Source: Planctomycetota bacterium (lineage in GTDB: Bacteria; Planctomycetota; SZUA-567; JAKLDR01). From it: a DNA stretch of 64,000 nucleotides. The translations under genes were made by a program, and so were the position numbers. Position 1 is the stretch's first letter; each line of letters starts with the position of its first letter. The notes below the pieces were generated by a model. That model worked only from the letters and a program-made list of their open reading frames with translations. It was not told the origin of the DNA and did no database searches. This document shows positions 49,271 to 56,854 of the stretch, piece by piece. The DNA lies in assembly GCA_022703445.1 (NCBI GenBank), contig JAKLDR010000005.1:36107-100106 (forward strand), given 5' to 3'.

Positions 49271-50367
49271 GACTTGCCTTTCTCCGCCGGCCGCAGCCGC
49301 ACCGGCACCTTGATGAGCGTCGGCGGCATCTCCGGCCTGGCCCGGCGCTCGGCCAGCCGGACGATGGTCAGCCGGGCGAGCTCGGCTATGCTCCAGACCA
49401 TGGTGGGCGGCACCGAGCCCCTGAAGCTCGCGCTGTAGGCGCCGCCGTAGAGTTCCTCGGTGCACCAGCCGACGAGCTCGAGATCCCGGCCGAGGCTCAG
49501 GCCCAGCTCCCCGGCCGCCGCGGCGAGCTCGGCGGCGGCGTCGTGCCAGAGCCCGAGCACGGCGGTGGGGCGCTCGCCGAGGCTCAGGAGTCTCCGGGCC
49601 GCCGCGGGCGTCTCCGGCCAGGGCGTGTCCCGCATGTACTCCGGCCGGAACTCGACGCCCGCCGCGGCCAGCGCCGCCGCGACGCCGCCGTAGCGCTCCT
49701 GGCTCTGCACGCTCTCCGAGATCCGGCCGAGCCAGGCGATCCTCCGGTGGCCGCAAGCGAGGAGGTGCTTCGTGGCGGCCATCGCGCCCTGGAAAGAGTC
49801 CTGGACCACCGCGTCCAGGCTCATCTCCGGACTCCAGGCGTCCATCATCACCGCCGGCAGGCGCACCCGGCCGACCTCGGCCAGCAGCTCGGGTTTGGCG
49901 ACGTCGAGCACCATGCCGCAGGCCCGGCAGTCGCGGAGCTGCTCCATGATCTGCGCCGGCGAACGCCCCCCGATGCCGATGGCCAGCATCGACCAGCCGC
50001 GGTCCGCCGCCGCCTGCTGCAGGCAGGCGAAGAGCATGCGCGAGAAGTCGTCCCAGAGCTCGGTCTTCTCCGCGCCGCCCAACACGAAGGCGATGGGCAG
50101 CCCGCGCTCCGGGTCGTTGACTCGGGCCAGGACCCGGAAGCCCTGACGCGGCTCGGAGGCCACCAGGCCCTCGGCCTCGAGCTGTTTGGCGGCGCGCCGC
50201 GCCGTCTCGGGAGCGACGCCGTGGGTCGCGGCCAGTTGCTTGTTGGACGGCAGAATCTCGCCGACTCCGATCTCGCCGTTCAGGATCGACTGCCGCAGCT
50301 TGCCTGCCAACTCGACGTAACCGATTGCCTCCAAGACCGATCCATCTGCACGCCGCGTGACCACCAT
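49267..50367 (-). CDS. GntR-type HTH fused to a LacI/PBP-like sugar-binding domain, regulator 2
   Basis: ORF 49267..50571. Start at MVVTRRADGS (ATG 50367, AGGAGG upstream). LPSNKQLAATHGVAPETARRAAKQLEAEGLVASEPRQGFRV. Collinear with regulator 1. Confidence 0.85.
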   Translation of the reverse strand: MVVTRRADGSVLEAIGYVELAGKLRQSILNGEIGVGEILPSNKQLAATHGVAPETARRAAKQLEAEGLVASEPRQGFRVLARVNDPERGLPIAFVLGGAEKTELWDDFSRMLFACLQQAAADRGWSMLAIGIGGRSPAQIMEQLRDCRACGMVLDVAKPELLAEVGRVRLPAVMMDAWSPEMSLDAVVQDSFQGAMAATKHLLACGHRRIAWLGRISESVQSQERYGGVAAALAAAGVEFRPEYMRDTPWPETPAAARRLLSLGERPTAVLGLWHDAAAELAAAAGELGLSLGRDLELVGWCTEELYGGAYSASFRGSVPPTMVWSIAELARLTIVRLAERRARPEMPPTLIKVPVRLRPAEKGKS

Positions 50368-50518
50368 CGTAACTACCTCCTGCCTACCATACACCGGGAG
50401 TTGCTGCCTGTTCGCGGTGTCCGGGCGAATTATTGCATCAAAGAGGCTTGTGGCGCTGACTCGCACTGTACGAAGGGATCGACACCCAGCCACGGCGCCG
50501 GAGCCGGTCAGCCGGAAA

Positions 50519-50624
50519 CTTATGTATTTGAACTGTCGCAGCGCCTTTCGCTTATGTAATTGAACTGTCACCTTATGTATTAGGAGTGTCGCAGCCGCTT
50601 TGGCTTATGTATTTGGACTGTCAC
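50519..50624 (+). repeat. four direct copies of an AT-rich 21-mer CTTATGTAWTWGRAsTGTCRC (a 53-bp unit duplicated in tandem)
   Basis: Copies at 50519-50539, 50551-50571, 50572-50592 and 50604-50624. A further full copy at 54014-54034, with a truncated one just before it. Confidence 0.85.
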
Positions 50625-50717
50625 CCCGTTTGCAGGGGGCCGGCGCCCGGCGAAAGCACCACAAAAGTCCGTGCGCGCAGAATTCTGGGCAGAAAATCGC
50701 ACGGACGGGCCCAAAAC
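50581..50717 (+). repeat. ~137-bp direct repeat, copy 1 (contains the REP-like hairpin 50667-50706)
   Basis: TAGGAGTGTCGCAGCCGCTTTGGCTTATGTATTTGGACTGTCACCCC...GTCCGTGCGCGCAGAATTCTGGGCAGAAAATCGCACGGAC recurs at 53991-54128 with a few substitutions and indels. Confidence 0.9.
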
Positions 50718-50778
50718 GGCCTCTCTACAGCACCTAACACCTTATGCCGCAGCTAGATGTCGTGCTCCGACGAGGATG
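50698..50778 (+). repeat. ~80-bp repeat B, copy 1 (ends in the 19-nt core GATGTCGTGCTCCGACGAG at 50756-50774)
   Basis: CGCACGGACGGGCCCAAAAC..CACCTAAC..TTATGCCGCAGC..GATGTCGTGCTCCGACGAGGATG. A second copy lies at 53890-53970. Confidence 0.85.
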
Positions 50779-50864
50779 TCCCAGACGAGGATGTCCCAAG
50801 GACGAGGATGTCCCAAGGATGTCCCAGTGCCCCGACGAGGATGCCCAGACGACGAGGATGCCCC
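50769..50864. repeat. degenerate microsatellite of GACGAGGATGTCCCA-like units
   Basis: CGACGAGGATGTCCCAGACGAGGATGTCCCAAGGACGAGGATGTCCCAAGGATGTCCCAG..GACGAGGATGCCC, immediately 3' of the PD40 gene stop. Confidence 0.8.
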
Positions 50865-52736
50865 TTATTCTTGCCGCCTTGTGTCCTGGCAAGGAATGCG
50901 CACACGGTAGAGATCCTGCCCCTTCATTGCCAAGTACTCCACTGTGCCGTCCTTCAGGAATACTGGGCCACATGTAAGACTGGTGATAGGAGGTGCAGAT
51001 CGGCCGTCAACAACAACTACTCGTTGGCCACCGGTGTCTGCTACGTAGACGATGCGCGAACTGTCTGGGCTGAAAGCCATAGTGCCAGCATCAATTCCTC
51101 CGAACGCCGGCCCGGGCTGGCCGTCAACGACGGCATATCGTCTTTCTCCGCTACGTGCTACGTAGGCCCAGCGTTTGCCGTCTGCGCTGAAGACGGGCAT
51201 TGGTGACAGTATCTCATCATACTCAGGACCTGCGGTGGCATCGTATACCACACACTGTCCCCCACCACGCTTGTCGAATAGTCCGGGGCGTCTTTCGACA
51301 ACATATGTCAAATGCTTCCCATCTGGACTGAAGGCCGGCACTCCCACCACAATATCGCCAAACCGTGAAGCTTCTCTGCCATCGAGAAGCACATGATCCT
51401 TACCGTCGCGGCTGACTACGCAAACGACCTTGGCGCCATCAGGGCTAACGACAGGACATCCTTTCCGGACCGAGTCGTATGGCCCCAACTTCTCGTCATC
51501 GACAACCAGGAACGAACGTCCCCCCTCAAAGCCGACATGCAGCCGTCGCTTGGTGCCAGAGCTGAGGCGCAACGAACCGAAGGCAATGGCATCAGTTTCG
51601 GGTCCGGAGTTGCCATCAAGTACAGAACTCCACTTGCCGCCATCTAGGGCGATATAGGCAAAATGCTTGCTGTCTGTGCTAAACAGCACGTCATCGTTGG
51701 ATATCCCATCGTACTGCTTGGTGGTCTGCTCATCTATCACCACCACCCAACGCTCCTGAGTCACTGCGACATAGGCAAGGCGAGAGCCGTCAGGGCTGAA
51801 ACGAAAGCCGCTCTTGCCAAGGTGATCATACGCCTGACTTTCGCGCCCGTTGACCACCACTATCGGCTTGTTATCTCTTACTCCGACATAGACACACTTG
51901 GTGCTGTCTGGGCTGAAAAGAACATCGCAGATCCTGTCGAATCTAGGGCCAACCTTGCCATCCACAACCACGACAGCTCCGTTATCATTCCGGCCATGGT
52001 AGGCTACGCGTCTGCTGTCAGGGCTGAATATCGGGGCGCCGATCTTGTCGAAGACCGGGCCTGCTTCTTCATCCACAACAACCCGCTCTTTGCCGTCCTC
52101 CTTGATACAATAGGCGAACCGCTGGCCATCAGGACTGAAACAAGGAGGTCCCGCCTCATCACAGGCAAGTCCTTGCTTGCCGTCAAGATGGTAGCGTGCC
52201 TTCTGCCCATCCCAGGCAAGATAAGCTAGGCGCGTTCCCTCTGGACTGAAGCGGCACCACCCTACCCGATCATGTTTCTGCCCCTTCTTCTGGTCAACCA
52301 CGGCCGTCCAATGCGTTCCCTCGGAGGCTACAAATGCGTAGCGCCTCCCGTCAGGGCTGAAGGCGCAAGGGCCAGGTTCGTCGGAGCCGTTAATGCAGGT
52401 GGACATGATGCTATCGCATTCCATTTCAACACGCCCGTTCACAACCACACAACGCTTGCGTCCCTTGTTGCCTACGTAGAAGCATAGGGTGCCTTTGGGG
52501 TTGAAATGAACACCAGCTAATGCCTCGAATCGTGGACCTAGCGCGCCATCCAGTACCACGCGGTAGTTTCCGTCGCGCTCACTGACAACGAGGGCGGCAT
52601 GGCACCCGGATGGAGTTGCCGACAGGTATGTCCTGTGCACCCGCCAATCGTCAGCCACTCTGCAGAGAAGTTGCTCTTCGCCCATCGCAGAGTGGACTTG
52701 GAACAGACATGACGCGAGAATGATCCAAGTGCGCAT
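50865..52736 (-). CDS. secreted PD40/TolB-like (WD40-like) repeat protein with about 12 tandem ~45-aa modules
   Basis: ORF 50865..52769. Start at MRTWIILASCLFQVHSAMG (ATG 52736). Twelve recurrences of FSPDG/FSPDS/FSADG-x-R/K-x-AY...VV(V)DG..GP.(Y/F)D.I. G+C is visibly lower (two hand-counted lines gave 53-55%). Confidence 0.8.
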   Translation of the reverse strand: MRTWIILASCLFQVHSAMGEEQLLCRVADDWRVHRTYLSATPSGCHAALVVSERDGNYRVVLDGALGPRFEALAGVHFNPKGTLCFYVGNKGRKRCVVVNGRVEMECDSIMSTCINGSDEPGPCAFSPDGRRYAFVASEGTHWTAVVDQKKGQKHDRVGWCRFSPEGTRLAYLAWDGQKARYHLDGKQGLACDEAGPPCFSPDGQRFAYCIKEDGKERVVVDEEAGPVFDKIGAPIFSPDSRRVAYHGRNDNGAVVVVDGKVGPRFDRICDVLFSPDSTKCVYVGVRDNKPIVVVNGRESQAYDHLGKSGFRFSPDGSRLAYVAVTQERWVVVIDEQTTKQYDGISNDDVLFSTDSKHFAYIALDGGKWSSVLDGNSGPETDAIAFGSLRLSSGTKRRLHVGFEGGRSFLVVDDEKLGPYDSVRKGCPVVSPDGAKVVCVVSRDGKDHVLLDGREASRFGDIVVGVPAFSPDGKHLTYVVERRPGLFDKRGGGQCVVYDATAGPEYDEILSPMPVFSADGKRWAYVARSGERRYAVVDGQPGPAFGGIDAGTMAFSPDSSRIVYVADTGGQRVVVVDGRSAPPITSLTCGPVFLKDGTVEYLAMKGQDLYRVRIPCQDTRRQE

Positions 52737-52856
52737 TTCCGACCCTCTACGTAAGATCAGTGTCACCATGTGCGACTCCAGCCTAGCACGAAACGCTGCT
52801 TAGTATCGTACTTGCGTCTCGTGTCTCGTCGTCTCGTGTCTCCCTCGTGTCTCGTC

Positions 52857-52938
52857 GTGTCTCGTCGGAGCACGACATCCTCCTGGCGCACAGCTTCGTC
52901 GTGTCTCGTCGGAGCACGACATCCTCCTGGCGCACAGC
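52857..52938. repeat. two tandem 38-nt units (44-bp period), each carrying the inverted 19-nt core
   Basis: GTGTCTCGTCGGAGCACGACATCCTCCTGGCGCACAGC at 52857-52894 and 52901-52938. CTCGTCGGAGCACGACATC is the exact reverse complement of the core at 50756-50774. A GTCTCGT-word tract precedes it (52810-52860). Confidence 0.9.
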
Positions 52939-53073
52939 GAGTTAGATGCTCCCGAAACCTCATTTGTACCCCGTCCATTGCGTTTTCGGGGGCCAAATCA
53001 ACGCGTACGGCCTCCGGCCAGCGGGTAAGGCCACGCACGGATGGCCTCTCGGCAGTGCCGCTTCGCGGGGACT

Positions 53074-53835
53074 TCAATCTTTCCCCTTCCCAGACTCTGC
53101 CCCGGCAGGCCCCCGCCCATAGGGCTCCTCGGTCTCGCGCACCAGCCACGAATCGTCTTGGCCGCGCCGGATCTCCAGCTTCGCCCGCCACTCGTTCGCG
53201 TCCGCGACCCCGTTCACGAACTCCTGGCTGCCCACCGCGATCGAGTCGGTCCACTGCGCCTCGCGGCCCAGCCGGTGCGCATCCAGCGCCTCGGCGATCA
53301 TCGCCTGGTGGTCGCGGGCCAGCTCCGCGGCGCTGGGCGTCCCGGTCAGCTCCAGGAGCTTCTCCCGGTCGAGCACCAGGAACTTCCGGCGCTCGCCGGC
53401 CAGCTCGTCGTAGCCGCACCACCGCCACTCCCGCGGATGTCCAACAACCCCGGCCCGGACCATGTTCAGGTCGATGTAGCGCATGCACCGCCAGAGGTGC
53501 TCGCCGCTCTCGACCATCGTGCAGTGATAGCGCCCGTTCCAAAACGCCCCGCTGCGCCGCCGGCGCAGGTTGTACCACTTGCCGAACTCGCCCTGCAGCC
53601 GCTGCATGAACCGGGCGATGGCCGCCGGCTCTTGGGCGCTGACCAGCAGGTGCACGTGGTTGCTGGTCAGGCACCACGAAAGCAGCGAGACGTCCGAGCC
53701 GCCCAGGACCTCCCGCAGGCGCCGGCGGTACTCCTGCCGGTGCGCCTTGAAGCGGAGGAGGAACTTCCGGTCGTGACAGCGGTGCGTCAGGTGGCAGGCG
53801 CTTCCGGGCAGGACATATCTATTTGCTACCGGCAT
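53074..53835 (-). CDS. REP-associated tyrosine transposase (RAYT, IS200-like Y1/HUH transposase), copy 1
   Basis: 253 aa. HUH motif SNHVHLLVSAQ. Tyr motif RYIDLNMVRAGVV. Inverted REP-like cores flank it (52861-52923 on one side, 53948-53966 on the other). Confidence 0.85.
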   Translation of the reverse strand: MPVANRYVLPGSACHLTHRCHDRKFLLRFKAHRQEYRRRLREVLGGSDVSLLSWCLTSNHVHLLVSAQEPAAIARFMQRLQGEFGKWYNLRRRRSGAFWNGRYHCTMVESGEHLWRCMRYIDLNMVRAGVVGHPREWRWCGYDELAGERRKFLVLDREKLLELTGTPSAAELARDHQAMIAEALDAHRLGREAQWTDSIAVGSQEFVNGVADANEWRAKLEIRRGQDDSWLVRETEEPYGRGPAGAESGKGKD

Positions 53836-53860
53836 GGTGGCGCATCATACCCGCCCGAAG

Positions 53861-53899
53861 CGTCCGTGCAAGAATCGGGTGGCAATAAACGCACGGACG
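53861..53899. repeat. REP-like hairpin
   Basis: CGTCCGTGC (53861-53869) pairs with GCACGGACG (53891-53899). The same stem sequence occurs in the hairpins at 50667-50706 and 54078-54117. Confidence 0.8.
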
Positions 53900-53970
53900 G
53901 GCCCAAAACAGCTTCTCCAGAACACCTAACCACTTATGCCGCAGCGGGATGCCGTGCTCCGACGAGGATG
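53890..53970 (+). repeat. ~80-bp repeat B, copy 2 (core GATGCCGTGCTCCGACGAG at 53948-53966)
   Basis: Aligns with 50698-50778. The core has one mismatch. Confidence 0.85.
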
Positions 53971-53990
53971 CGTAGGATGCGTTGCGTCCT

Positions 53991-54128
53991 TAGGAGTGTC
54001 GCAGCCGTTTTGGCTTATGTATTTGGACTGTCACCCCGGTTGCAGGGGGCCGGCGGCCCGGCGAACGCACCACAAAAGTCCGTGCGCGCAGAATTCTGGG
54101 CAGAAAATCGCACGGACGGGCCCAGAAC
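53991..54128 (+). repeat. ~137-bp direct repeat, copy 2 (contains hairpin 54078-54117)
   Basis: Aligns with 50581-50717. GTCCGTGCG (54078-54086) pairs with CGCACGGAC (54109-54117). Confidence 0.9.
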
Positions 54129-54472
54129 CGGACTCCAGTCATGGTCAACCCATTGCAGGACAGAGAGATGGCGTGGTCCGACCCCGAAGCCCGGAACCCG
54201 AAGCCCGGAAGCCCGCCCCGTGACTGGTCTCGCCGTCTTCTTGGCCGTTCAGCCTCGGTGGACCCATTCACCCTGTCTAGCCCTCAATCCTTCGCAATGC
54301 TTCGACGGCCGCATCGTGAACGCGCCAGTCGCTGTCACCAAGCAGCCTCTTCAGCGCTGGCACAGCATCGCTGGCCGCTGACCCGATCCCGCCCAACGCT
54401 TTGGCGGCATCCTGTCTGATATCACCACTCTGGCATTCCAACATCTTGGGGGCTTCCGGGGACACAACACTT

Positions 54473-55135
54473 TTACCCCCCTGTCCTTCTCGGCCGTCTC
54501 TGCAGGTCCCGCCCGGTGAGCTTCTCCACCAGCTTGACGAACTCCCGGTCGCCGGCCGGGCGCGACGTGCGCGACGACCGCCGCAGCTGCCTCTCGGCCG
54601 GTTCGTCCGCGCCGGTCAGGAGTTCGCGCCACGCGCGGGCGTCGGGCACCAGCCCCAGCAGCGTCCGGTCCCGGATCAGCGGGTCCTTGTCCTGCAAGGC
54701 CAGATGATAGCGAGCGCTCGACCACGGCCAGTCTTCCGCTTGCGCGGCCAAACCGGCCTTCACCGGATTGAGTTCCGTGTACCGCGCCGCAGCCAGCAGA
54801 TGGCGCTGATCGAGCACGCACGAACCGAAGCGCCCCTGGAACAGGTAGCCGCGCGCCCCCTCGGCGAAGTTGCGCCAGCGGGTGTAGCGCTTGTGCGCCT
54901 CGCCGACCGCGCGGGCCAGCGCGGTCTCCTCCGGCGGCACCATCACCAGATGGACATGGTTGGTCATCAGGCACCAGGCCAGCACTTCCACCCCCTGGAG
55001 ACGGCAGTGCTCGGCCATCAGTTCGAGGTAAGTCCGCCGTTGGGCGTCGGTGCTGAGCACGTCCATCGAGCGCACCCCGCGCTGCGTGACATGATGCGGA
55101 TGCCCGGATACCACAACACGTGCGATTCTTGCCAT
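54473..55135 (-). CDS. REP-associated tyrosine transposase (RAYT, IS200-like), copy 2
   Basis: ORF 54473..55171. Start at MARIARVVVSGHPHHVTQRG (ATG 55135). HUH motif TNHVHLVMVPP. Tyr motif RYTELNPVKAGL. 220 aa. Confidence 0.85.
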   Translation of the reverse strand: MARIARVVVSGHPHHVTQRGVRSMDVLSTDAQRRTYLELMAEHCRLQGVEVLAWCLMTNHVHLVMVPPEETALARAVGEAHKRYTRWRNFAEGARGYLFQGRFGSCVLDQRHLLAAARYTELNPVKAGLAAQAEDWPWSSARYHLALQDKDPLIRDRTLLGLVPDARAWRELLTGADEPAERQLRRSSRTSRPAGDREFVKLVEKLTGRDLQRRPRRTGG

Positions 55136-55288
55136 GACCGGATGACTATATCCGAAACAGAAGAACTTCAAGAGGGAAAAGTGTTGTGTCCCCCGAAGCC
55201 TCCCGTGCGATTCTTGCCATGACCGGATGACTATATCCGAAACAGAAGAACTTCAAGAGGGAAAAGTGTTGTGTCCCCCGAAGCCTCC
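55119..55288. repeat. 85-bp tandem duplication (2 units) covering the RAYT-2 start codon, its upstream region and the right inverted end
   Basis: Units 55119-55203 and 55204-55288 (CGTGCGATTCTTGCCATGACCGGATGACTATATCCGAAACAGAAGAACTTCAAGAGGGAAAAGTGTTGTGTCCCCCGAAGCCTCC) appear identical by eye. Confidence 0.9.
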
Positions 55289-55372
55289 GTGAGCCCCAAC
55301 ATCGAAAGCGTCAGCAGGGACACGCACTGCCACATGACCGTTCTCCGGCGCATAGAAATCCTCCTGCCGCCG

Positions 55373-55404
55373 TCAGCTTACCCCGCCCGGCGGTGGCGCG
55401 CAAG
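55373..55404 (+). repeat. 32-nt direct repeat, copy 1
   Basis: TCAGCTTACCCCGCCCGGCGGTGGCGCGCAAG. It matches 59996-60027 at 31 of 32 positions. Confidence 0.85.
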
Positions 55405-55443
55405 GCTCTCCCCGTCCCTAGGAGCGACGCAAGGAGGGGTGGC

Positions 55444-55986
55444 CTACTTGCCAGCCGCTTTGGCCCGGACTGTCTGCAGCGAGTAGTCGGCGGCGGAACG
55501 CACGTCCTCGTGCCGATCTGTGGCCGCCAGTTCCAGAGCGGCGATCACCTCGGTGATCCGGTTGCCAAGTTCGCAGTCACGCAGGCCCTCTACTGACGCT
55601 AGGCGGATCAGCGGGTTGGAGTCGGTGATACCATCGAGCGCTGCGACGACGGACCGCCCGTCGCAGATCTGCAAAAGGAGGTAAGCTGCAGACTCGCGGT
55701 CGCCGGACGGTCTCAGCAGCCTAATGTAGAGCCTGGTCTTGCGGGCTGCCTCTCGTGGATTGTCTAGCAGTCGGCCCTCTATCGCGCTGGCAAGTCCCAA
55801 GTAGTGGACCTTGGCGGGTTGGCTGCGCTCCAGGTCGTTGACCGCATTATTCACCTGCCACACCGGCACCACCACCGCACCGACGAACCAGGCCAGGCCG
55901 AGGGCCAGGAGGATGGCCGCCGTCCACGCCGCCATCGGCCGCCAGGTGCGGAGGGGCTTGGCAGGCTGGTCAGCGGGCTCGGTCAC
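55444..55986 (-). CDS. membrane-anchored HEAT-repeat protein
   Basis: 180 aa. GTG start with GAGGAG 8 nt upstream. TM segment AAWTAAILLALGLAWFVGAVVV. HEAT-like DSNPLIRLASVEGLRD...ATDRHEDVRSAADYSLQTV. Confidence 0.75.
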   Translation of the reverse strand: MTEPADQPAKPLRTWRPMAAWTAAILLALGLAWFVGAVVVPVWQVNNAVNDLERSQPAKVHYLGLASAIEGRLLDNPREAARKTRLYIRLLRPSGDRESAAYLLLQICDGRSVVAALDGITDSNPLIRLASVEGLRDCELGNRITEVIAALELAATDRHEDVRSAADYSLQTVRAKAAGK

Positions 55987-56014
55987 TTCGCCGGCTCCTC
56001 GCGACAGCTGTTAC

Positions 56015-56410
56015 CTATGACACCCATCGTGATGGAAACTCGAGAACCCATTTCCCATCCACACGACGGGCAACGCCTTCTGCCCCACCTGATGCCTCGG
56101 GATCGCGATACTGACAGTATAGAACTTCAGCAGTCGTGTCGTTCAGCCATCGCGTGATCGAGAGCTGCAGCAACCACGCCGGGCGTCCCTCTCCCCGTTC
56201 CCGAACGAACCCATGGGCATCCTTGGCTGCTTCCGAGGCCCTGCGGAAGACGGCCACACCGGAGCTGTTAAGTCTGGCCAGCAGGTCTCCGGAGATGTCC
56301 TGCCCATCGCCGCATCCAACAAACCATTCCTTCACATGGGTCCGCCTCTCCAAGGCATGAAAAGCGAGAGCCTCCAATAGCGACGCCTCTGATTCGTGCG
56401 AAGCTGTCAT
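56015..56410 (-). CDS. hypothetical protein (131 aa)
   Basis: ORF 56015..56458. I prefer ATG 56410 (MTASHESE), preceded by GGGAGGT. I recognise no family. Confidence 0.6.
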   Translation of the reverse strand: MTASHESEASLLEALAFHALERRTHVKEWFVGCGDGQDISGDLLARLNSSGVAVFRRASEAAKDAHGFVRERGEGRPAWLLQLSITRWLNDTTAEVLYCQYRDPEASGGAEGVARRVDGKWVLEFPSRWVS

Positions 56411-56415
56411 CGTGT

Positions 56416-56452
56416 CAACCTCCCCCGCCATTCTCCCCGCCCCCCGCGCCCG
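56416..56452. repeat. conserved junction motif upstream of small genes, copy 1
   Basis: CAACCTCCCCCGCCATTCTCCCCGCCCCCCGCGCCCG. A near-identical copy (one indel) lies at 56885-56920. On the sense strand it supplies the SD (GGGGAGGTTG) of the downstream gene. Confidence 0.8.
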
Positions 56453-56476
56453 GCGCAAGGCGCGGGAGGAGCAACT

Positions 56477-56854
56477 TCAGGGTCGGGCTGGTGGCTTCCC
56501 GGGAGGCCAGGCGTCTATCCGGATGAGTCTCTCCCTCAGCAGTTCGCGGACAAACGATTCCTCTGAGGCTGACGCCCACAGCTCACTTGGATGATCATGG
56601 AAACCGAACAGCTCAATGCCACCTCGAACCAACCGGAAGTTGCGGGTCTTGATGATGTTGTCGTTGGTGCACCACGTGGCCAGCAAGGACGGAACGTCCT
56701 CAGCGGAAAAGGCCCGTTCATCAATCTCAATGGTTGCGCCCTGGCCATAGTGTTCTAGAATGCGCTTGAAGACCGCTGAGTACCTCGTAGTACTTAGCCC
56801 ATAGATACTTGACGGCTCCTTCCTCTGCCCGTTGAGCCAATTCCAGAACGACAT
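56477..56854 (-). CDS. hypothetical protein (125 aa)
   Basis: ATG-initiated ORF with coding-like composition. I recognise no family. Confidence 0.6.
   Translation of the reverse strand: MSFWNWLNGQRKEPSSIYGLSTTRYSAVFKRILEHYGQGATIEIDERAFSAEDVPSLLATWCTNDNIIKTRNFRLVRGGIELFGFHDHPSELWASASEESFVRELLRERLIRIDAWPPGKPPARP

What the first reader, a model, noticed from the sequence alone, without database searches (positions are those of the whole stretch)
54438..55303. RAYT-carrying 850-bp element with inverted ends and an 8-bp flanking direct repeat has split a small HEAT-repeat gene; the intact 72-aa ORF can be reconstructed in frame
Seen: CCAACATC occurs at 54438-54445 and 55296-55303 (GATGTTGG on the gene strand). 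Just inside these are imperfect inverted ends GCTTC(C/G)GGGGACACAACACTTTT(A)CCC. The ATG at 55353 (SD AGGAGG) encodes MRRRTVMWQCVSLLTLSML and then runs into the element. ORF 54277..54465 continues with ..MLECQSGDIRQDAAKALGGIG..EALRRIEG. The ATG-TTG codons inside both 8-mers are in frame with their respective fragments. Deleting 54446-55303 therefore yields one ORF: MRRRTVMWQCVSLLTLSMLECQSGDIRQDAAKALGGIGSAASDAVPALKRLLGDSDWRVHDAAVEALRRIEG. Established knowledge: Y1/HUH transposases of the IS200/IS605 and RAYT type normally act on subterminal hairpins. They do not create target-site duplications or have terminal inverted repeats. Inference: this looks like a recent insertion of a RAYT-containing unit behaving like a classical TIR+TSD insertion sequence. 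That is atypical and may indicate mobilisation in trans by another enzyme or an undescribed RAYT mobility mode.
Basis: partly seen in the sequence, partly recalled or inferred. Interest (0 to 1): 0.7.

Follow-up and report, generated by a model that had tools for sequence, protein, structure and literature searches.

The report
Known-type TIR-flanked tyrosine transposase element
The element is an ordinary member of an already described class, a RAYT-like tyrosine-transposase gene framed by long inverted repeats (a "TIRtron"), sitting in what looks like a small HEAT-repeat gene of an uncultured planctomycete; the 8-bp flanking repeat is real, but no other copy in the family has one.

Summary
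This covers the two CCAACATC 8-mers, the 30-nt inverted ends, the Y1 transposase ORF and the in-frame 72-aa HEAT reconstruction.

The premise that inverted ends are atypical for a RAYT-like gene is wrong. Such units were described in 2013 as TIRtrons, and their transposases as TIRYT (TnpA_Y1 subclass 2.1). This protein has that class's signature motifs (NHVH, FQ, Y-ELNP), and its repeat (GGGGACAC) fits the published GGGGWSAS motif. The 13-nt repeat core is conserved next to relatives in several phyla, so the repeats belong to the Y1 enzyme itself, not to a helper transposase.

Whole units do move. A 99% identical copy lies at another site in the same metagenomes. In another genome, two 99.3% identical copies lie on one contig.

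None of 33 other elements, including these recent copies, has a flanking duplication. No empty site exists in any public assembly. The 8-mers are also separated from the element by 5 and 10 extra bases.

The duplication is therefore a one-off repair footprint or chance (about 0.3-2%), not a family mechanism.

The parts
54451..55285 (-). The TIRtron as bounded by homology with other copies (GGCTTCS GGGG ... CCCC SGAAGCC). It is 835 bp, or 750 bp without the 85-bp duplication.
   Evidence: Homology with copy B (L084, L088, L096) and with L002 starts and stops at these bases. The unit size matches relatives, whose cores lie 717-759 bp apart. L026 and L030 share a 754-bp unit.
54473..55135 (-). 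TIRYT gene: a 220-aa Y1 HUH tyrosine transposase of the RAYT-like subclass 2.1.
   Evidence: PF01797 E 9.5e-9. NCBIfam REP_Tyr_transpos 64.5 bits against a cut-off of 80; IS200 model only 16 bits. PDB 4ER8 TnpA_REP by sequence, E 1e-4, and by fold, E 3.7e-9. Motifs NHVH, FQGRF and YTELNP are present.
54448..54477 (+). Inverted repeat at the 3' end of the gene. Its core GGGGACACAACAC is at 54458-54470.
   Evidence: It fits the published GGGGWSAS motif (PMC3733652). On its own it does not fold into a hairpin (z +0.87).
55259..55288 (-). Outer copy of the inverted repeat at the 5' end of the gene.
   Evidence: No significant hairpin (z -1.27).
55174..55203 (-). Inner copy of the 5' inverted repeat. 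This is the copy in front of the intact gene.
55119..55288 (-). Perfect 85-bp tandem duplication (two units). Each unit holds the inverted repeat, the 57-nt leader and the first 17 nt of the ORF. Its outer boundary coincides with the outer end of the 30-nt repeat.
   Evidence: D1, 100% identity. The junction is reproduced in L001, L083, L087, L090 and L093-L095. It is absent from copy B (L084).
54438..54445 (.). 8-mer CCAACATC (GATGTTGG on the gene strand), copy next to the 3' end. It is separated from the element by TTGGG.
55296..55303 (.). 8-mer CCAACATC, copy next to the 5' end. It is separated from the element by TCCGTGAGCC.
55297..55353 (-). The 19 codons MRRRTVMWQCVSLLTLSML with AGGAGG 7 nt upstream. 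This is the presumed N-terminal fragment of the interrupted ORF.
   Evidence: It is too short for any homology test.
54277..54444 (-). HEAT-repeat C-terminal fragment (MLECQSGD...RRIEG, 55 aa plus the stop codon; 54277 is the first base of the stop on the + strand).
   Evidence: The 72-aa reconstruction that contains this fragment scores HEAT_2 E 1.7e-10, HEAT and HEAT_PBS. The fragment itself matches a generic HEAT module in 25,417 proteins.

Best explanation
The segment 54451-55285 is a TIRtron. This is a roughly 750-bp unit made of one TIRYT gene and two cognate 25-30-nt terminal inverted repeats built around the conserved core GGGGACAYAAYAC. A TIRYT is a RAYT-like Y1 HUH tyrosine transposase of TnpA_Y1 subclass 2.1 (Bertels group 1). 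The host is an uncultured Planctomycetota bacterium.

Shown:
- The class assignment.
- The core is conserved with the gene across phyla.
- Whole units occur as near-identical copies at different sites, with sharp repeat-to-repeat boundaries and no target-site duplication.
- The repeat ends are hot spots for tandem partial duplication.

Inferred mechanism:
1. The enzyme recognises the 13-nt core at each end. Because the sites are inverted, it acts on opposite strands at the two ends.
2. It nicks at or just outside the G-run.
3. It occasionally moves or copies the whole unit by a single-strand HUH cut-and-rejoin route, which makes no duplication.
4. Nicking followed by slipped resynthesis at the G-runs produces the 10-14-nt 'stutter' copies. 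It also produced the 85-bp duplication seen here.

This copy probably (about 60%) landed in a small signal-peptide plus HEAT-repeat ORF. The 8-bp repeat lies 5 and 10 nt outside the element. It is best read as a one-off junction or repair footprint (microhomology plus filler bases) or as chance, not as the regular product of the transposition chemistry.
For: Class assignment:
- PF01797 match.
- Closer to REP-associated tyrosine transposases than to IS200 (64.5 versus 16.2 bits).
- Best solved structure is 4ER8 TnpA_REP, by sequence and by fold (pLDDT 90.6; E 3.7e-9).
- Motifs NHVH, FQ and Y-ELNP are invariant in 28 relatives, as listed for subclass 2.1 in PMC6006769.
- The repeat GGGGACAC fits the GGGGWSAS motif of TIRtrons in PMC3733652.

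The repeats are cognate to the gene:
- The core sits about 57 nt upstream of the ATG and just after the stop in relatives from Desulfobacterota, Binatia, Planctomycetota, Bipolaricaulota, Acidobacteria and Alphaproteobacteria.

Mobility of whole units:
- Copy B (5' flank in L084; 3' flank in L088 and L096) is 98-99% identical and sits in different, intergenic surroundings in the same sample series.
- A 90% copy lies at a third site in a sister species (L002, L097).
- L026 and L030 are 99.3% identical over 754 bp on one 160-kb contig, with unrelated flanks.

No duplication in the family:
- The longest direct repeat in the flanks of 33 other elements equals the cross-locus control.

End-anchored duplication:
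- 36 of 130 repeat arms carry an extra tandem copy of [outer 6 nt + GGGG]; 0.29 are expected, and the inward mirror test gives 5 of 130.
- The 3' repeat is triplicated in L097 but not in L002.
- The neighbouring, unrelated TIRtron also has its end duplicated (D3).
Against: - The 8-bp repeat is unlikely by pure chance (0.3-2%). Only a TSD-style deletion restores one reading frame. A real, insertion-linked duplication therefore cannot be dismissed.
- The cleavage position and the strand chemistry are inferred, not shown.
- No C-terminal HTH domain was detectable by Pfam here.
- That copies A and B share one genome is likely but unproven.
- Most relatives checked (P0328, P0334) sit in one fixed context across many samples. 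They look domesticated rather than mobile.
Confidence: 0.72

Rival explanations
1. The 8-bp repeat is a true target-site duplication. The TIRYT, acting on its inverted ends, inserted the unit into staggered nicks 8 bp apart in the HEAT ORF. This would be an undescribed double-strand mobility mode for a Y1 HUH enzyme.
For: - An exact 8-mer lies within 15 nt of both ends; chance is 0.34% in this window and 0.8% in cross-locus controls.
- Deleting one 8-mer plus everything between the two restores a 72-aa HEAT ORF in frame, while other deletions frameshift.
- The N-terminal fragment has a good Shine-Dalgarno sequence.
Against: - The repeats are 5 and 10 nt away from the homology-defined ends.
- 0 of 33 other elements show a duplication. 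That includes the recent pairs L026/L030 and L009/L040, copy B and L002.
- No empty site was found in seven independent assemblies or in 5.8 billion protein clusters.
Confidence: 0.15
2. No gene was split. The 19-codon ORF upstream is fortuitous. The HEAT piece is a remnant, or a small gene started from the ATG at the repeat edge. The 8-mer match is chance in a repeat-rich, rearranged region.
For: - The 72-aa protein has no homologue other than its own fragment.
- The N-terminal fragment is too short to test.
- About 0.3-0.6 such 8-mer matches are expected among the 34 elements examined.
- The neighbourhood is packed with other repeats and a second TIRtron.
- Precise removal of the element alone leaves a frameshift.
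Against: - AGGAGG sits at ideal spacing before the ATG at 55353.
- The fragment reads like a signal peptide, as in the neighbouring HEAT paralogue with an N-terminal membrane segment.
- The HEAT fragment lacks its own N-terminal helix and a strong start.
- The in-frame join continues the HEAT helix pattern.
Confidence: 0.1
3. The unit is passively mobilised in trans by a classical DDE transposase that recognises the inverted repeats. The Y1 gene is cargo.
For: Only the superficial resemblance to an insertion sequence: inverted ends plus one flanking direct repeat.
Against: - The 13-nt repeat core stays at fixed distances from the Y1 gene down to about 45% protein identity in several phyla.
- No other ORF lies in the unit.
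- There are no duplications elsewhere in the family.
- The published class definition links these repeats to the Y1 gene (PMC3733652).
Confidence: 0.03

Closest known systems
TIRtron / TIRYT (Di Nocera, De Gregorio and Rocco 2013, PMC3733652), which is TnpA_Y1 subclass 2.1 (Quentin et al. 2018, PMC6006769) and Bertels et al. 2017 RAYT group 1 (PMC5581495)
   Same: - A Y1 HUH gene of about 220-240 aa with NHVH, FQ and Y-ELNP motifs and a conserved C-terminal extension.
- Flanked by long terminal inverted repeats instead of REP hairpins.
- The repeat contains GGGGWSAS (here GGGGACAC).
- The repeat sequences also occur as low-copy singles, dimers and clusters (L085, L086, L091, L092).
- The phylum range includes Planctomycetes.
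   Different: Nothing that defines the class. Added here:
- Near-identical whole-unit copies at different sites.
- One copy sitting inside an ORF.
- A family-wide tandem 'stutter' of the outer repeat end.
- The absence of target-site duplication, measured on 34 elements. The two papers do not discuss target sites.
Canonical RAYT / REPtron (E. coli TnpA_REP, PDB 4ER8; NCBIfam NF047646)
   Same: - Best sequence and fold match.
- The Y---NP catalytic motif.
- A gene bracketed by its cognate repeats in inverted orientation.
- Repeat doublets that form long hairpins (REPIN-like) exist elsewhere.
   Different: - Scores below the NCBIfam cut-off (64.5 against 80).
- The repeats have no GT[AG]G foot, and single arms do not fold.
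- The repeat family is low-copy: 11 exact hits in the whole metagenome collection.
- The whole unit is duplicated, which is unusual for domesticated single-copy RAYTs.
IS200/IS605 insertion sequences (IS608, ISDra2)
   Same: - The Y1 HUH fold.
- Small single-gene units.
- No target-site duplication in the family.
   Different: - The IS200 model scores only 16 bits.
- The catalytic motif is Y---NP, not Y---Q.
- The ends are inverted repeats without subterminal hairpins, rather than similar hairpins in direct orientation on one strand.
Classical DDE insertion sequences with inverted ends and target-site duplication
   Same: Size, inverted ends and, in this one copy, a nearby 8-bp direct repeat.
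   Different: - No DDE transposase is present.
- The repeat does not abut the ends.
- Other copies have no duplication.

Membership tests
TIRYT / TIRtron (TnpA_Y1 subclass 2.1) | Y1 HUH catalytic core | tested here: met
   PF01797 E 9.5e-9. 4ER8 by sequence and by fold, TM 0.73 normalised to the target.
TIRYT / TIRtron (TnpA_Y1 subclass 2.1) | Signature motifs NHVH, W[EQ]/FQ and YIELNP/Y[IV]HLNP (Table 1 of PMC6006769) | tested here: met
   TNHVHL, YLFQGRF and RYTELNP are present. The relatives have YVELNP. The H, H, Y, N and P positions are invariant in 28 sequences. The second residue of the Y motif is T here.
TIRYT / TIRtron (TnpA_Y1 subclass 2.1) | Gene flanked by long terminal inverted repeats rather than REP hairpins | tested here: met
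   30-nt arms, 90% complementary. Single arms do not fold (z -1.27 and +0.87).
TIRYT / TIRtron (TnpA_Y1 subclass 2.1) | Repeat carries the GGGGWSAS motif | tested here: met
   GGGGACAC in all three arms. The core GGGGACAYAAYAC is found in relatives.
TIRYT / TIRtron (TnpA_Y1 subclass 2.1) | C-terminal HTH-like domain (Bac_DnaA_C, HTH_23 or HTH_28 similarity) | tested here: inconclusive
   A conserved 80-aa C-terminal extension with three confident helices is present. Pfam gives no hit even at E up to 10.
Canonical RAYT (NF047646, REPtron) | Score at or above the curated NCBIfam cut-off | tested here: not met
   64.5 bits against a cut-off of 80.
Canonical RAYT (NF047646, REPtron) | Flanking REP hairpins with a 5' GT[AG]G foot, present in high copy number in the genome | tested here: not met
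   No GTAG foot and no hairpin in single arms. No further copy in the 64-kb window. Only 11 exact hits in the metagenome collection.
IS200/IS605 | IS200 transposase model and Y---Q motif | tested here: not met
   NF033573 scores 16.2 bits against a cut-off of 55. The motif is Y---NP.
IS200/IS605 | Subterminal hairpins at both ends on the same strand | tested here: not met
   The ends are reverse complements of each other and do not fold.
Classical TIR+TSD insertion sequence | A fixed-length direct repeat abutting the inverted ends in independent copies | tested here: not met
   Only this copy has a direct repeat of at least 8 nt, and it lies 5 and 10 nt from the ends. 33 other elements match the control distribution. 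L026 and L030 have none.
Classical TIR+TSD insertion sequence | An empty site that differs from the filled site by the element plus one repeat copy | tested here: not met
   No intact 72-aa allele in the protein collection. All seven assemblies of the locus carry the insertion. Raw reads could not be searched.

The most novel reading that the evidence does not exclude
The TIRYT enzyme inserted its whole TIRtron into double-stranded target DNA through nicks staggered by 8 bp, leaving a true target-site duplication. In that case Y1 HUH transposases of this subclass would have a second, insertion-sequence-like mobility mode, besides the duplication-free single-strand route known for IS200/IS605. 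The end-anchored 'stutter' duplications would then mark the cleavage point at the G-run.
Probability: 0.13. Interest if true: 0.65.

Novelty: new member of a known kind. Interest (0 to 1): 0.3.

Why it matters
Nobody has shown what TIRYT enzymes (the largest RAYT-like subclass) do, or whether TIRtrons move.

This locus and its relatives give sequence-level evidence on three points:
- Whole units do relocate, between sharp repeat-to-repeat boundaries.
- They do so without target duplication.
- Their ends undergo frequent tandem partial duplication at a G-run, which is a concrete hint to where the enzyme cuts.

This narrows the experiments needed. It does not overturn current understanding of Y1 transposases.

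Tried and rejected
- **Empty-site search by protein.** The 72-aa reconstruction found only its own 62-aa fragment.
- **HMMER search with the HEAT fragment.** The exhaustive search returned 25,417 generic HEAT-repeat proteins and no orthologue. It was uninformative and used the only job of that kind.
- **Neighbouring gene as a route to an empty site.** The upstream 180-aa HEAT gene has no relative closer than 47%. All contigs carrying the identical gene also carry the insertion.
- **Paralogue in the window.** No paralogue of the 72-aa ORF exists in the window.
- **Relatives seen on many contigs.** Looking up P0328 and P0334, in the hope of multi-copy elements, showed one fixed context each.
- **Subterminal hairpins of the IS200 or REP type.** Rejected by folding.
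- **Sigma-70 promoter or terminator scan of the element.** Nothing found.
- **Rfam scan of 50000-56500.** Nothing relevant.
- **Reading the extra 10 and 5 nt as decayed stutter copies of the repeat.** This would make the 8-mers abut the element. The similarity to copy B's stutter is suggestive but too weak to claim.
- **Microhomology origin of the 85-bp duplication.** The junction has one G too many for a simple CACG slippage.

Full report
**1. The observation**

- CCAACATC occurs at 54438-54445 and 55296-55303.
- A 30-nt inverted repeat, 90% complementary, lies at 54448-54477 versus 55259-55288. Its 24-nt core pattern occurs only at the element ends in the 64-kb window, with none expected by chance.
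- Between the arms lies one ORF on the minus strand, with a Y1_Tnp domain (PF01797, E 9.5e-9). Its real start is the ATG at 55135 (MARIARVV..., 220 aa).
- The ATG at 55353 is preceded by AGGAGG.
- Deleting 54446-55303 gives exactly the 72-aa ORF quoted, and that ORF scores as HEAT_2, HEAT and HEAT_PBS.

Three things were missed.
- The gene-proximal end is a perfect 85-bp tandem duplication (55119-55203 / 55204-55288). Each unit holds the repeat, the leader and the first 17 nt of the ORF. The duplication junction is reproduced in independent JGI, ENA and NCBI assemblies.
- The 8-mers do not abut the element. The bases shared with other copies run from 54451 to 55285. That leaves TTGGG on one side and TCCGTGAGCC on the other.
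- Removing only the element (either definition of its ends) gives a frameshift. Only the TSD-style deletion restores one frame.

**2. What the protein and the ends are**

- The protein scores 64.5 bits on NCBIfam 'REP-associated tyrosine transposase' (cut-off 80) and only 16 bits on the IS200 model.
- The only solved relative by sequence is E. coli TnpA_REP, 4ER8.
- A confident AlphaFold model (pLDDT 90.6) also matches 4ER8 best (E 3.7e-9). The IS608 and ISDra2 transposases follow.
- The family is very large: at least 5,298 proteins at E up to 1e-40. In an alignment of 28 members, TNHVHL, YLFQGRF and RY(V/T)ELNP are conserved, along with a C-terminal RTGRPAGD...LTGRDL...PGRP tail.

The literature search shows this class is already described.
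- Di Nocera et al. 2013 (PMC3733652) named RAYT-like genes flanked by long terminal inverted repeats 'TIRYT' and the units 'TIRtrons'. They noted a shared GGGGWSAS motif in the repeats. They also found low-copy families of the repeats as singles, dimers and groups.
- Quentin et al. 2018 (PMC6006769) equate these with TnpA_Y1 subclass 2.1. Its features are NHVH, FQ, YIELNP, a C-terminal HTH-like domain, no REPs, and a correspondence to Bertels group 1.

The window element meets each sequence feature. Its repeat reads GGGGACAC.

**3. The repeats belong to the Y1 gene**

A scan of one genome per species found 479 relatives. I kept 80 loci. The core GGGGACAYAAYAC sits about 57 nt upstream of the ATG in one orientation. 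It sits just after the stop in the other orientation. This holds in relatives down to about 45% identity, from Desulfobacterota, Binatia, Planctomycetota, Bipolaricaulota, Acidobacteria and Alphaproteobacteria. Such co-conservation argues that the Y1 enzyme itself recognises these ends. It argues against a trans-acting DDE transposase.

Single arms do not fold (z -1.27 and +0.87). Isolated doublets of the repeat found in other metagenome contigs form very strong hairpins (z -8.4 and -10.8). Those doublets are REPIN-like.

The exact repeat occurs in only 11 stretches of the whole metagenome collection. It is a low-copy family.

**4. Do whole units move, and with what junctions?**

The organism is an uncultured Planctomycetota bacterium (GCA_035390085.1). 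Besides the window copy (copy A), three further cases bear on this.
- **Copy B.** It is 98-99% identical to copy A. Its 5' flank is on L084, just after the stop codon of an unrelated gene. Its 3' flank is on L088 and L096, upstream of an FGE-sulfatase gene. It comes from the same sample series. It lacks the 85-bp duplication. It carries a 20-nt partial repeat copy at one end and a 12-nt one at the other. No 8-bp direct repeat is visible.
- **A sister-species copy.** It is 90% identical at the nucleotide level and lies at a third site (L002, L097). It has an older duplicated 5' end. In L097 only, the 3' repeat is triplicated.
- **L026 and L030.** In a different lineage, these two copies lie on one 160-kb long-read contig. 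They are 99.3% identical over exactly 754 bp, from 5-6 nt outside one G-run to 5-6 nt outside the other. Their flanks are unrelated and there is no duplication.

Across 34 elements with both arms, the longest direct repeat in the flanks follows the cross-locus control. The only value of 8 is the window copy (earlier version).

Two further relatives seen on many contigs (P0328, P0334) sit in one fixed context each. They behave like stable single-copy genes.

**5. The empty site**

- The 72-aa protein has no relative in 5.8 billion clusters other than its own fragment.
- The HEAT fragment is a generic module.
- The upstream gene has no close orthologue.
- Every assembly of the locus carries the insertion and the duplication.

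**6. How much weight the 8-mer deserves**

An exact direct repeat of at least 8 nt within 15 nt of both ends occurs at 0.34% of positions at this spacing in the window. Within 20 nt the figure is 0.76%, and within 40 nt it is 5.5%. Cross-locus controls give 0.8-1.8%. The in-frame join adds a factor of about three.

So pure chance is not comfortable. On the other side stand the 15 extra bases and the uniformly negative family evidence. I therefore put:
- about 0.15 on a true, mechanism-made duplication;
- about 0.1 on 'no gene was split at all';
- the rest on a TIRtron whose insertion here left an irregular junction (microhomology plus filler), or whose 8-mer is coincidental.

**7. A feature that does look mechanistic**

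In 36 of 130 repeat arms, the outermost 6 nt plus GGGG are repeated in tandem further out. The period is mostly 10-14 nt. Shuffling predicts 0.29 such arms, and the inward mirror test gives 5 of 130.

The same kind of event differs between close strains (L097 versus L002). The 85-bp duplication of the window copy starts exactly at the outer end of the repeat. The neighbouring TIRtron (53074..53835), which has an unrelated repeat, has its 3' repeat perfectly duplicated as well (D3).

I infer that the enzyme nicks at or beside the G-run, and that slipped resynthesis generates these copies. This is inference, not demonstration.

**8. Verdict**

This is a new member of a known kind. The 'atypical RAYT with inverted ends' premise is wrong. 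The classical TIR+TSD behaviour is not supported. What remains of interest is modest:
- sequence evidence that TIRtrons relocate without target duplication;
- a reproducible end-stutter that points to the cleavage site.

Noticed in passing
window 52850-53970: A second TIRtron lies directly next door. Its Y1 ORF is 53074..53835 on the minus strand (253 aa; PF01797 E 3e-14). It is flanked by unrelated 30-nt inverted repeats (52861-52890 / 53937-53966, CTCGTCGGAGCACGRCATCC, no GGGGWSAS). Its 3' repeat is perfectly duplicated in tandem (52852-52894 / 52896-52938), followed by GACGAGACAC-like stutter.
   Followed up: partly
window 50760-50880: A solo copy of the second element's repeat (CATCCTCGTCGGAGCACGACATC), preceded by about five tandem GGGACATCCTCGTC partial copies and with no transposase gene.
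   Followed up: no
window 50560-50720 and 53990-54192; L088 6493-6715: A dispersed repeat of about 145-200 bp (…GGGCCCGTCCGTGCGATTTTCTGCCCAGAATTCTGCGCGCACGG…), about 94-95% identical between copies. It lies after stop codons or next to type-2 repeats. A partial third copy is at 53887-53909. There is no Rfam match.
   Followed up: partly
window 54172-54215: A run of GGGCTTCC / GGGCTTCG / GGTTCC / GGGCTTCGGGG units that resembles the outer part of the type-1 repeat but lacks its core. It lies 60-110 nt downstream of the HEAT stop. It may be a footprint of a lost repeat or part of the dispersed repeat.
   Followed up: no
L098 (ENA ERZ27257508, k141_160722): This contig has the 5' flank of copy A (the HEAT N-terminal fragment and the 85-bp duplication) and the 3' flank of copy B (the FGE-sulfatase side). 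It is either an assembly chimera across the repeated element or a real recombinant between the two copies.
   Followed up: no
L004-L053, 5' arms (for example L020 2944, L026 2943): In most relatives the 5' repeat core is followed 8-10 nt later by TTGAC, a likely -35 box. The gene's promoter would then overlap the enzyme's own binding site. The window copy has TTGAAG and TATAGT at a 15-nt spacing, which the sigma-70 scan does not call.
   Followed up: partly
L085 4960-5002, L091 2952-2989, L092 4870-4932, L086 626-665, L025 4063-4109, L044 1752-1803: Gene-less doublets or tandem copies of the same repeat core. Some are in AT-rich genomes. Several form near-perfect long hairpins, which makes them REPIN- or MITE-like derivatives.
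   Followed up: partly
window 55444-55986 and many hits: The upstream gene belongs to a large Planctomycetota family of small proteins with an N-terminal membrane segment followed by HEAT repeats. L002 and L003 carry N-terminal homologues (about 59% identity) within about 0.6-2.6 kb of their Y1 elements.
   Followed up: no
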